A stretch of 64,000 nt of DNA from Balamuthia mandrillaris (taxonomy: Eukaryota). The DNA lies in contig JAVKOQ020000106.1 of NCBI GenBank assembly GCA_031835245.2, positions 62,001 through 126,000 on the forward strand, in the 5' to 3' direction. Below are positions 23,517 through 26,583 of this stretch, in pieces. Position numbers and translations under genes: made by a program. Each line of letters opens with the position of its first letter. The first letter of the stretch is position 1. The notes below the pieces were generated by a model. It did no database searches. It was not told the DNA's origin and was given only the letters and a program-made list of their open reading frames with translations.

Positions 23517-24604
23517 ATGGGGAGGAGAAGGCAAAAGAGCAAGCAAACAACAAGATACCACGTCTTTATCTACAAGGTGCTGAAGAAGGTCCATCCCGAT
23601 ATCGCCATCATCAACAGAGCTATGAGCATCATGGACTCCTTCGTGAGGGACATAGCCTACCGGGTCTTGCAGGAGGTCACCACGCTGTTGGAGCACACCG
23701 GCAAGAACACCATCTCCTCCCGCGAGATCCAAACGGCGGTAAGGCTCATTCTGCCTGGCGACCTGGCCCGACACGCTGTTTCTGAAGGTACCTCTTTGTG
23801 TTATGTATTTTATTTTTTTGTTGTCTTTTTTTAATGTTGCAGTAACGAACAACAACAAAAAGGAACCAAAGCCGTAACCAAGTTCCAATCTACGCTTCGC
23901 TCGGATGGTGGCAGCTCCTACAGCCCAGCGAAGCAATGGCAGCTATTCTCTTCGAGCTGGGTGAAAAAACTCCCTCTTCTCTCCTACCTAGCTCTGAACT
24001 TTTTGGCTTCCTTTCTATTCGTGTGTTGTTTTGAAAACCAACCCACCTAACCCAAAACATAGACTACAATTCCCGGTGAGCAGGGTGCGTTCCTGGCTGC
24101 AGGCATGCTCCAGCGCTAGAATCGGTTCGTTTGTGCTTCTGCTTTCTCTCTTGGAGTTCTTGTTCTTCTTTTTGTAAACGCGTGCGCAAATAACAGGTAA
24201 AGGGGCTCCAGTTTATTTGGCTGCAGTGCTGGAGTATGTGTGCGCCGAGGTTTTGGGTATGTTTTTGGTTTCATATATCTACTTCTCTCTCATGTTCTCC
24301 ATCAAATAGAACTCGCTGGCAATGCTGCAAGAGACAACAACAGAGTGAGCATCATTCCTCGACATATTATGCTTGGTATTTGTCATGTCTTGCTTTCGCT
24401 TCTTTCTTCAATCTTCTTACTTTTTATTCTAGCCCCTTCTTTCTATCCTCTTCTTCATCTCACTCCCTTTCGTAAGCAATTCGCAACGATGAGGACCTGA
24501 ACAAACTCTGTAGATATGTGATCATTCCCGATGCTGGGGTCCCTCCAGAGATTCATGCTGCCCTGTTACCTTGTGGCGGCGCATTCGACACCGATGAACA
24601 TTAA
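23517..24604 (+). pseudogene. H2B-H2A fusion histone, copy 1 (frameshift in linker as assembled; pseudogene or assembly indel)
   Basis: Exons 23517-23787, 23863-23960, 24063-24124, 24197-24256, 24310-24375, 24477-24604. H2[12 protein letters not shown]...[32 protein letters not shown]2A: SLRAG/LQFPVSRV...GAPVYLAAVLEYVCAEVL/ELAGNAARDN..IIPRHIML/AIRNDEDLNKL. Confidence 0.85.
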
Positions 24605-24737
24605 CCTATCATGAATTACCCAAACAAGAACAAGTGAAGCACGTCTGCATGTGTGCTGTACACAATCACTTTACCATTGTTGTTATAGTAAACTCCTTCC
24701 CCTTTATTCTTCTTAACCATCTGTACCTGCTTAGAAG

Positions 24738-24983
24738 TAGGTTGGAAGGAGGAAGACAAATAGAACAGACAGAGAAAAAAAAAAGAAAACGAACAAAACC
24801 AAAGCTTAGGCAGCAGTCAAGGAGATAGAGACCGAAAGAACAGAAAAAGATAAGGACGCTGACGATATCCCTCAGGCCAGAAAAGATGAATGATGGAAGG
24901 CTGAACTTTGTCAAATCTTAAGTCGGAGGATTCTGTTGAGTAATAAAAAGTGAGAAAACGTTTAAACAAAAAACAAAGGCTAA
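24738..24983 (-). pseudogene. Duplicated lipase exon plus flanking intron sequence
   Basis: Highly similar to 27339-27599, including the exon NPPTYDLTKFSPPSFIFSGLKDT; here the Tyr codon reads as a stop (ACT TAA GAT). Confidence 0.85.
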
Positions 24984-25179
24984 CGACAAAAACAACAAAC
25001 TGAAATAGAAAACTACAATCGGCTGGAGAGGGGGTTTCATAAAACTGACCAATAGGCAGAGCCTCCCACGTCACCGCGATCTGGTCCTCTCCCCCGTCTT
25101 CTCTCCTATCTGCTTTCCTTATCGGGACGCTGTCAAGCGGATATCCCGCCGCCAGAGTGTATGTAACAACCCCACGAAA

Positions 25180-26583
25180 ATGGAGAGAAGGCAAAAGAGA
25201 GCAATCAAACAACAAGCTACCACGTCTTTATCTACAAGGTGCTGCAGCAGGTCCATCCCAACACCGGCATCAGCAACAGAGCCATGAGCATCATGGACTC
25301 CCTCGTGAGGGACATGGCCGACCGGGTCCTGCAGGAGGTCACCACGCTGTTGGAGCACACCGGCAAGAACACCATCTCCTCTCGCGAGATCCAAACGGCG
25401 GTAAGGCTCATTCTGCCTGGCGACCTGGCCCTGCACGCTGTCACTGAAGGTTTCCTCTGCAGCTCTTTGTTTTGTTTTTTGTTTTTTGTTTTTTTTTTTT
25501 GTTTTTTTTGTTGCAGTAACGAACAAAAATAAAAAGGAACCAAAGCCGTAACCAAGTTCAAATCGACTCTTCGCTCGGATGGTGGCAGCTCCTACTGCCC
25601 AGACGATAGCAACTATTCTTTTCGATCTGGGTGACTCTCTTCCCTCTCCTCCCTAGCTCTTACCTCTTTCCTTGTTGCTTCTTTGCGCCTTCCTTTCTTT
25701 TCGCTTGTTATTTGAAAACCAACCCAACCCAACCCAAAACATAGACTACAATTCTCAGTGGACCAGGTACGTTCCTGGCTGCAATCGTGCTCGCGAGCTA
25801 GAATCGGTTCGTGCTTTTTTTTTCGGCTTGTTCTCTCTTGGGCTTCTTGTGTCTGCTTGTTCTTCTTGTAAACACGAATGCACACAACAGGTAAAGGGGC
25901 TCCAGTTTATTTGGCTGCAGTGCTGGAGTATGTGTGCGCTGAGGTTTTGGGTTTGTCTATTGTCTCTTCTTCTTTTCTTCTCTCTCTCTCTCTCATGTCC
26001 TCGCTACCGAATAGAACTCGCTGGCAGAGCTGCAAGAGACAACAACAGCGTGAGAATCATTCCTCGACATATTATGCTTGGTATTTGTCACGTCTTGCTT
26101 TCTTGTCGCTTCCACTGTCTTTTGATCTAGTCCCTTCTTTGTTTCCTCTTGTTTCTTCTTTCTTCCTCCTCCTTCTTGTTCTTTTACTTGTATTTCTTCT
26201 TGTTCTTCTTCTTCTTCTTGTATTTCTTGTTCTTCTTCTTGTGCTTTTTCATCTTCTTCTTCTTCTTCTTCTTCTTCTTCTTCTTCTTCTTCTTCTGCTT
26301 GTTGTTCTTCTTCTTCTTCTTCTTCTTCTTCTTCTGCTTGTTGTTCTTCTTCTTCTTCTTCTTCTTCTTTCTTCTTCTTCTTCTTCTTCTGCTTTCTTGT
26401 TCTTCTTCTTCGTCTCACTCCCTTTTTTTCTCAGCAATTGGCAACAATGAGGACTTGAACAAATTGTGCAGCTATGTAAACCTTCCCGGTGCTGGCGTCC
26501 TTCCAGAGAATCATGCTGCCCTGTTACCTGTCGTAGCGGCGCATTCAACATCGACGACTATTATGAACATTAACCTGGCATGA
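25180..26583 (+). pseudogene. H2B-H2A fusion histone, copy 2 (linker in frame; 2-nt insertion near the ATG as assembled)
   Basis: Same five introns; exon 25537-25630 reads GTKAVTKFKSTLRSDGGSSYCPDDSNYSFRSG and splices in frame to LQFSVDQV (25745); later exons 25891-25950, 26015-26080, 26435-26583. Confidence 0.85.

What the first reader, a model, noticed from the sequence alone, without database searches (positions are those of the whole stretch)
23517..26583. Nuclear, intron-containing H2B-H2A fusion (histone doublet) genes in tandem
Seen: in both copies the H2B C-terminal helix (GTKAVTKF) has no stop and runs within one exon into the H2A start (YSxRxG|LQF). In copy 2 the join is in frame through an about 18-aa linker (KSTLRSDGGSSYCPDDSN). 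Five spliceosomal introns are shared; the H2B tail is only about 13 aa, there is no H2A N-tail, and acidic-patch residues (LEY..AE.LE, NDED) are retained in copy 1. Known: cellular H2A and H2B are normally separate genes, whereas H2B-H2A doublets typify amoeba-infecting Marseilleviridae; engineered single-chain H2B-H2A folds properly. Inference: a host-encoded single-chain histone dimer, probably an independent eukaryotic fusion because both folds look close to canonical eukaryotic histones. It could be a stage-specific (e.g. cyst) chromatin variant or relevant to host-virus histone exchange. The ORF track hides it because of the introns.
Basis: partly seen in the sequence, partly recalled or inferred. 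Interest (0 to 1): 0.9.

Follow-up and report, generated by a model that had tools for sequence, protein, structure and literature searches.

The report
Amoeba's fused H2B-H2A histone genes
The amoeba Balamuthia carries spliced, transcribed nuclear genes that join histones H2B and H2A in one reading frame, an arrangement that reviews report from giant viruses but not from eukaryotic cells; the predicted single-chain protein likely builds a looser kind of nucleosome.

Summary
Real. The window is Balamuthia mandrillaris nuclear DNA (NCBI protein match). It holds two tandem six-exon genes in which the last H2B helix runs without a stop into H2A. Both copies are frameshifted in the window. RNA reads (5 of 5) and another DNA sample carry the letters missing from copy 1's linker, and that DNA sample carries those missing from copy 2; spliced RNA exists for both copies. 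The species also encodes an intact 218-aa doublet (three records) whose H2A half is transcribed, beside a normal single H2B. It folds like engineered single-chain H2B-H2A. The acidic patch and H2B K120 are kept; H2B Tyr83, which stacks on H4, is lost. Relatives are many: 56 environmental and 3 eukaryote-transcriptome doublets, and intron-bearing doublets in two unnamed metagenome eukaryotes. Many end like H2A.X. Viral doublets reach at most 59% identity, but trees cannot settle host versus viral origin. Four papers state that eukaryotes lack fused histones. This scan noted a similar gene in another genome before (e1-7368531, unchecked). Not shown: the protein, its place in chromatin, and the exon 1-2 splice.

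The parts
23517..23787 (+). Copy 1 exon 1: start codon, 13-aa basic tail, H2B fold up to the Gly of the last helix
   Evidence: 100% match to NCBI P0006; X15 and X16 reads cover it thinly
23788..23862 (+). Copy 1 intron 1 (GT..AG, 75 nt)
   Evidence: no X15 depth in bin 23780-23864 between covered exons; the joint itself is not listed (under 3 reads)
23863..23960 (+). Copy 1 exon 2: end of H2B, linker (23886-23943; two letters missing in the window, 20 aa with them), start of H2A
   Evidence: both letters in 2 of 2 X15 reads, 3 of 3 X16 reads and the X3 contig
23961..24062 (+). Copy 1 intron 2 (GT..AG), spliced in RNA
   Evidence: 3 X15 reads and 1 X16 read skip it
24063..24375 (+). Copy 1 exons 3-5 (24063-24124, 24197-24256, 24310-24375): H2A fold, with introns 3 and 4
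24477..24604 (+). Copy 1 exon 6: H2A docking domain, short acidic tail, stop
   Evidence: 2 X15 reads join across intron 5 (table 5c)
24735..24977 (.). 250-bp segment repeated at 27335-27584 (89.6%); marks the tandem duplication unit
   Evidence: blastn
25180..25449 (+). Copy 2 exon 1: H2B; one letter missing near 25194 in the window
   Evidence: the X3 contig carries the letter
25537..25630 (+). Copy 2 exon 2: end of H2B, in-frame 18-aa linker (25560-25613), start of H2A
   Evidence: the X17 contig covers 25590-25629 without differences and is spliced to exon 3
25745..26080 (+). Copy 2 exons 3-5 (25745-25806, 25891-25950, 26015-26080): H2A fold
   Evidence: X17 contig spliced over introns 2, 3 and 4
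26435..26573 (+). Copy 2 exon 6; one letter missing near 26530 in the window, so the assembled frame runs on to a stop at 26583
   Evidence: X3 record 5 (inferred from its gaps against copy 1)

Best explanation
These are two tandem, spliced nuclear genes of Balamuthia mandrillaris that join H2B and H2A in one frame; the predicted single-chain dimer likely enters nucleosomes as one unit and likely makes them less stable than normal ones. They are diverged, weakly expressed paralogues of an intact 218-aa doublet found elsewhere in the genome, and they sit beside normal single histones (at least H2B). Steps. (1) Shown: spliced RNA joins the H2B end, the linker and H2A in frame for copy 1, and the linker and H2A for copy 2. 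(2) Predicted: the chain folds as an intramolecular H2B-H2A dimer, the Gly/Ser-rich linker replacing the H2A N-tail. (3) Inferred: fusion fixes a variant H2A to a variant H2B at 1:1, so both are deposited together beside ordinary H3-H4. (4) Inferred: the kept acidic patch and H2B K120 leave reader and ubiquitin sites usable. Loss of H2B Glu71, Arg79 and Tyr83, a shorter H2A L1 loop, short tails and lower positive charge weaken the H2B-H4 and H2A-H2A contacts and DNA wrapping. (5) Speculative: the family's H2A.X-like tails point to a role in DNA damage or stress chromatin.
For: All 10 introns GT..AG; no stop or in-frame ATG at the join. Frame-keeping letters in 5 of 5 RNA reads, and intron 2 skipped in 4 reads. 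A spliced X17 contig matches copy 2. The window copies group with P0018 at 100/94 and 99/89. AlphaFold model of P0018: pLDDT 90.4, pTM 0.85; top structural matches are engineered single-chain H2B-H2A (6w4l, rmsd 0.9 A, 65%). H2B Glu71, Arg79, Tyr83 present in 0 of 9 eukaryote-derived doublets against 36, 23 and 30 of 38 single H2B; H2A E56, E61, E64 and H2B K120 present in 9 of 9. PMC8357426 (passages): the stacking tyrosines are absent in Melbournevirus histones, whose nucleosomes are destabilised. Neighbours are intron-bearing cell genes (aldehyde dehydrogenase, hydrolases, AAA ATPase, RhoGAP, L27A). A second eukaryote has two tandem three-intron doublets between D123 and bromodomain genes (L009).
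Against: No protein, proteomic or chromatin evidence. The exon 1-exon 2 joint is not listed in either lay, and no single read or contig is shown to span the whole H2B fold into H2A. For P0018 only the H2A half is shown transcribed; its fusion rests on the NCBI model. Expression of the window copies is very low (0, 2 and 3 reads at the linker). dN/dS between the copies is 0.58, not clearly below 1 (Fisher p 0.087). Copy 2 has lost conserved residues (H2A P26, G28, R29, R88, D90; H2B K108). The Balamuthia doublets do not carry the SQ phosphorylation site of H2A.X. The folded protein was the paralogue, not the window copies.
Confidence: 0.65

Rival explanations
1. The family is real, but the two window copies are decaying duplicates of the intact doublet: still spliced at a low level, no longer under strong selection, with the frameshifts being true null alleles.
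For: Three frameshifts in the window. dN/dS 0.58, p 0.087. Copy 2 lost conserved residues and has fold charge +3 against +11 for canonical. Few reads. X1 and X2 hold two variants, and an X2 contig ends exactly at 25194, which may mark a variable site.
Against: Other samples carry the frame-keeping letters at all three sites. No premature stop in 184 compared codons. Both copies give spliced RNA. Single-letter losses, two of them 4 nt apart, resemble long-read errors (my knowledge, not tested).
Confidence: 0.25
2. The doublet was captured from a giant virus long ago, gained introns, and works in host-virus conflict, for example as a decoy that disturbs viral genome packing.
For: Same order and linker size as viral doublets; the same loss of the H2B tyrosine. 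Eukaryote-like viral doublets exist at up to 59% identity. The AU test does not reject a Balamuthia-plus-virus clade (p 0.52; p 0.91 on the quick tree). Two of three EukProt doublets join viral long branches (97/96). Atlas look-alike clusters are 55% eukaryote and 91% viral.
Against: Nearest relatives are environmental doublets at up to 73% over the folds, not any of 24 viral doublets. No viral family among the 10 neighbouring frames scanned, in Pfam. 44 of 56 environmental doublets end in an aromatic residue and 12 in S/T-Q-x-F/Y/L, like cell H2A.X; 5 of 24 viral ones end aromatic and none of the printed ends shows that motif. No evidence for a defence role.
Confidence: 0.17
3. The fusion is made but does not act as a nucleosome part: it is cut at the linker into two histones, or acts off chromatin as a histone mimic that binds chaperones or acidic-patch readers.
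For: The linker is not conserved in sequence (8-59 aa among relatives). Several DNA-contacting arginines are changed (H2A R32, R35; H2B K85, R86). Non-nucleosomal tandem histone folds exist (SOS, 1q9c, 22%).
Against: 58-69% identity to canonical histones in both halves, a kept docking domain and net positive folds. Engineered single chains with short linkers fold and bind chaperones uncut (PDB entries). No conserved cleavage motif seen.
Confidence: 0.1
4. A gene-model artefact: two neighbouring single histone genes joined by wrong splicing, as in many animal records.
For: PMC9145170 section 16 found that animal fusion records it examined were mis-annotations; many such records fill. NCBI's model of copy 1 (P0006) reads 26 extra residues through intron 2.
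Against: The join lies inside one exon with no stop and no start, RNA reads cross it, and intact doublets occur in the same species and in transcript-derived records.
Confidence: 0.02

Closest known systems
Marseilleviridae H2B-H2A doublet (Melbournevirus MEL_369, PDB 7n8n; PMC8357426)
   Same: H2B then H2A in one chain; connector of about 20 aa (13, 18 and 20 here); short tails; H2B tyrosine of the H2B-H4 bundle absent.
   Different: Here nuclear and spliced; 58-69% identical to canonical histones against under 30% for the virus; acidic patch kept; 36% to 7n8n; no H4-H3 doublet in the window.
Eukaryote-like H2B-H2A doublets of giant-virus metagenome bins (L001, L005, L006, L003; PMC11222145, PMC9145170)
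   Same: Order, linker length, up to 59% identity.
   Different: Intronless and gene-dense (84-97% coding), often basic tails; the Balamuthia genes do not nest among them, though a sister relation is not rejected.
Engineered single-chain H2B-H2A (PDB 6w4l, 7wlp, 6k00)
   Same: Same fold and connectivity; rmsd 0.9-1.5 A, 64-65% identity.
   Different: Laboratory constructs of canonical histones; the natural doublet has changed H2B-H4 and L1 surfaces.
Histone variant H2A.X
   Same: 12 of 56 environmental doublets end in S/T-Q-x-F/Y/L and 44 of 56 in an aromatic residue.
   Different: The Balamuthia doublets lack the SQ site; H2A.X is a single histone.
macroH2A (NCBI's name for the model of copy 1, P0006)
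   Same: A long protein containing H2A.
   Different: No macro domain; two histone folds instead. The name is wrong.

Membership tests
Giant-virus H2B-H2A doublet | H2B and H2A folds in one chain, H2B first, short connector | tested here: met
Giant-virus H2B-H2A doublet | Encoded in a viral genome, without introns (marseilleviruses) | tested here: not met
   Five GT-AG introns, cell neighbours
Giant-virus H2B-H2A doublet | Low identity to eukaryotic histone folds (22-48% in PMC9145170) | tested here: not met
   58-69% per half; some metagenome viral doublets also reach 63-68% (L001)
Giant-virus H2B-H2A doublet | Loss of the stacking tyrosine at the H2B-H4 bundle | tested here: met
   Tyr83 absent in both copies and P0018
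Giant-virus H2B-H2A doublet | Descent from within the viral doublet clade | tested here: inconclusive
   Not nested in free trees; AU p 0.52
Giant-virus H2B-H2A doublet | Forms nucleosome-like particles | not testable with these tools
   Needs reconstitution
Canonical eukaryotic H2A and H2B | Separate genes and proteins | tested here: not met
Canonical eukaryotic H2A and H2B | Conserved folds, acidic patch, H2B K120 | tested here: met
   (copy 2 has D90 changed to N)
Canonical eukaryotic H2A and H2B | Long H2B N-tail, H2A N-tail, H2A K119 | tested here: not met
   H2B tail 8-13 aa, no H2A N-tail, K118/K119 absent
H2A.X | C-terminal SQ(E/D)-hydrophobic motif (motif recalled, not from a call) | tested here: not met
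   Absent in the window copies and P0018; present in 12 of 56 environmental relatives in relaxed form
macroH2A | Macro domain after H2A | tested here: not met
   Pfam scan of P0006 and P0018
Mis-joined animal histone models | Stop of the first and start of the second histone still in place | tested here: not met
   No stop or in-frame ATG in exon 2

The most novel reading that the evidence does not exclude
Fused H2B-H2A is an old, overlooked histone variant of many protists, derived from an H2A.X-like partner, and living cells rather than pre-eukaryotic ancestors are the source or sister of at least some giant-virus doublets. This would remove the premise that eukaryotes cannot tolerate fused histones and weaken the reading of viral doublets as relics of the early nucleosome.
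Probability: 0.35. Interest if true: 0.95.

Novelty: new variant of a known kind. Interest (0 to 1): 0.82.

Why it matters
[quoted passage not shown] PMC11222145 builds a ratchet model of nucleosome origin on that absence. A spliced, transcribed doublet in a culturable amoeba with public genomes makes the claim testable: can a eukaryote use a fused dimer in chromatin, and did viral doublets come from such hosts? It also offers a natural single-chain H2A-H2B variant for chromatin biochemistry, hidden so far under wrong database names.

Tried and rejected
No whole genome is held for this window, so the gene structure of P0018 and the species' single H2A were not seen. A search with the H2A half alone returned almost only vertebrate double-H2A models and gave no protist single H2A; the trees therefore have only animal canonical pairs as outgroup, and the large doublet clade (97/97, 100/97) cannot be read as one origin. 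A single-sequence fold failed (pLDDT 49.5). The quick tree was 25.8 log units worse than its constrained tree, so it was redone. Rows left out of trees: VIR_L002 and VIR_L003b (long branches); 29, 33 and 34 of 56 environmental doublets; 14 of 38 viral loci (near-duplicates, partial doublets, single histones). No RNA holder was listed by share; the raw RNA runs were additions. CCAAT is not enriched in the window (94 against 110 expected). An endogenous-virus setting was rejected on the 10 neighbouring frames scanned. Intron positions of L009 (three) and L007 (one) differ from the window's five, so introns give no support for a shared origin. No complex prediction was run: a textbook pair would pass by likeness. 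Nine literature searches found no report of a cell-encoded H2B-H2A doublet; the library lacks most subscription papers. PMC12153100, PMC13525598, PMC10471605, PMC8569187 and 10.1101/2021.11.30.470311 (passages) mention none. This scan holds no earlier notes on this genome.

Full report
Observation. The region holds two tandem genes on the + strand, 82.6% alike over about 1 kb. Each has six exons and five introns at the same places; all 10 introns are GT..AG. Exon 1 encodes the H2B fold. Exon 2 holds the last H2B helix, a Gly/Ser-rich linker and the start of H2A, with no stop and no in-frame ATG. Exons 3-6 encode H2A. No other histone-like stretch lies in the window. As assembled, copy 1 lacks two letters in the linker and copy 2 lacks one near 25194 and one near 26530.

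Organism and setting. The H2B exon of copy 1 matches at 100% an NCBI protein of Balamuthia mandrillaris, P0006, named macro-H2A.1. That model bridges the frameshift by reading into intron 2 and has no macro domain. Of 10 neighbouring frames scanned, 6 have Pfam matches, all ordinary cell genes (aldehyde dehydrogenase, two hydrolases, AAA ATPase, RhoGAP, L27A); 4 have none.

RNA and other DNA. Three raw RNA runs were read at 3-5 parts in 100. At the copy 1 linker, 2 of 2 X15 reads and 3 of 3 X16 reads carry both missing letters; X14 has no read there. Intron 2 is skipped in 3 X15 reads and 1 X16 read. The X3 contigs carry the missing letters at all three sites (the third by my reading of a copy-2-type contig laid on copy 1). 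A 240-nt contig of X17, a run only guessed to be RNA, starts in the copy 2 linker and is spliced over introns 2, 3 and 4, with no difference on its first three pieces. The exon 1-2 joint is not listed; X15 depth is zero over intron 1 and 1.1 and 1.9 beside it. X1 and X2 show two variants at about 2:1 depth and their gap table was cut, so assembly slip and null allele are both open.

An intact paralogue. P0018, P0121 and P0122 are 218-aa H2B-linker-H2A proteins on three contigs, differing at 3 positions, filed as 'Histone H2B type 1-A'. Read ends at 25899 in X14 (13 reads), X15 (5) and X16 (9) spell a peptide found only in these 3 of 503 proteins held, so its H2A half is transcribed, more than the window copies. 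The species also has a single H2B with a long tail, P0020. The window copies and P0018 form one clade (100/94; 99/89).

Fold. With a 72-row alignment AlphaFold gives P0018 pLDDT 90.4 and pTM 0.85. The best structural matches are engineered single-chain H2B-H2A (6w4l: rmsd 0.9 A, 65%); the Melbournevirus doublet ranks 38th at 36%.

Relatives. Among the best 120 hits, 56 environmental and 3 EukProt proteins have whole H2B then H2A with linkers up to 60 aa; one of the 56 is filed as an archaeal bin. Of 140 new cluster representatives, 124 are in H2B-H2A order. A junction pattern found 9 metagenome loci. Five of them (L009, L012-L015) appear to be one eukaryote with two tandem three-intron doublets between D123 and bromodomain genes; one copy is open, the other has a break in exon 1 in both assemblies that hold it. 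L007 is another intron-bearing doublet with one frameshift; L011 is the same contig as viral L003; L008 and L010 are unclassified. Viral contigs gave 38 loci, at most 59% identical. Most environmental records have no context and some may be viral; 2 of 3 EukProt doublets join viral long branches.

Shared features. In 9 eukaryote-derived doublets (3 Balamuthia, 3 intron-bearing, 3 EukProt) H2B Glu71, Arg79 and Tyr83 are kept in 0, against 36, 23 and 30 of 38 single H2B. H2A E56, E61, E64 and H2B K120 are kept in 9 of 9. The H2A L1 loop is one residue shorter than animal H2A in 8 of 9. Of 56 environmental doublets 44 end aromatic and 12 in S/T-Q-x-F/Y/L; 5 of 24 viral frames end aromatic. The Balamuthia proteins have no SQ site. 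Fold charge is +7, +3 and +8 against +11.

Mechanism. Shown: spliced in-frame RNA across the join. Predicted: an intramolecular dimer. Inferred: deposition as one unit beside normal H3-H4, with reader surfaces intact and a weaker H2B-H4 bundle. The role of Tyr83 is from established nucleosome structure and from PMC8357426 (passages), which notes the same loss in unstable viral nucleosomes. PMC11222145 (passages) reports that fusing frog histones eased assembly in E. coli. A DNA-damage role is a lead only: the tails of relatives, and a preprint (10.1101/2025.02.25.640156, one passage and part 1 of section 8) listing H2B and H2-like proteins in a cluster rich in repair genes; which genes these are is in a supplement I could not see.

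Against. No protein evidence. Low expression. dN/dS between copies 0.58 over 184 codons, p 0.087; intron difference 0.19 against dS 0.145. Copy 2 is eroding.

Origin. Unresolved. In the H2B tree most doublets, with Balamuthia's, group apart from singles (91), and the species' own single H2B lies elsewhere, yet holding them together is not rejected (p 0.48). A clade with four viral doublets is not rejected either (p 0.52). With 24 viral rows the Balamuthia genes group weakly (85/84) with two environmental doublets. Only animal pairs served as outgroup.

Literature. Read: PMC9145170 passages and section 16; passages of PMC11222145, PMC8357426, PMC10919886, PMC12297534, PMC12153100, PMC13525598, PMC10471605, PMC8569187 and 10.1101/2021.11.30.470311 (71). 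The first four state that fused core histones are unconfirmed or absent in eukaryotes. Nine searches showed no report of a cell-encoded H2B-H2A doublet.

Verdict. A real nuclear H2B-H2A doublet family in a culturable amoeba, unrecognised in the databases; a new variant of a known kind. Confidence that the fused genes are real and transcribed about 0.9; that the protein is a labile nucleosome variant about 0.65. Interest 0.82.

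Noticed in passing
window 24715-25139, mainly 25043-25114: The stretch upstream of copy 2 has several times the contig depth of the exons in X1 and X2 (up to 477 and 151), with loose ends on both sides, so it is shared with other loci. 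It holds a CCAAT box at 25049 and a motif near 25067-25082 that resembles the plant histone promoter element (recalled, not tested). Copy 1 lacks it.
   Followed up: no
L009 5119-7171 (- strand), also L012-L015: An unnamed eukaryote with two tandem H2B-H2A doublets, three introns each, acidic-aromatic tails; the upstream copy has a deletion in exon 1 in both assemblies that hold it.
   Followed up: partly
L001 3-545 (- strand): A giant-virus bin encodes a ubiquitin fused to an H4-like histone, head to head with an H2B-H2A doublet that is 63-68% identical to animal histones.
   Followed up: no
P0144: A 369-aa protein with a ubiquitin-like domain in front of an H2B-H2A doublet.
   Followed up: no
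L008 12-1337: A frame with a PAH repeat followed by doublet sequence, next to H4- and H3-like frames; host or virus unclear.
   Followed up: no
P0161: A eukaryote-like doublet filed by NCBI as an archaeal metagenome bin on a 2951-bp contig; likely mis-binned.
   Followed up: no
window 23837-23842 and 25510-25516: Both first introns have a second AG about 20 nt upstream of the modelled acceptor; its use would shift the frame and cut H2B short. No read supports it.
   Followed up: partly
window 26081-26434: Intron 5 of copy 2 has grown from about 100 to 354 nt by TTC repeat expansion.
   Followed up: no
window exons 3-6 of both copies: The window copies have 3-4 cysteines in H2A, one next to the L1 loop; PMC12297534 describes an L1 disulfide in a Melbournevirus variant doublet.
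   Followed up: no
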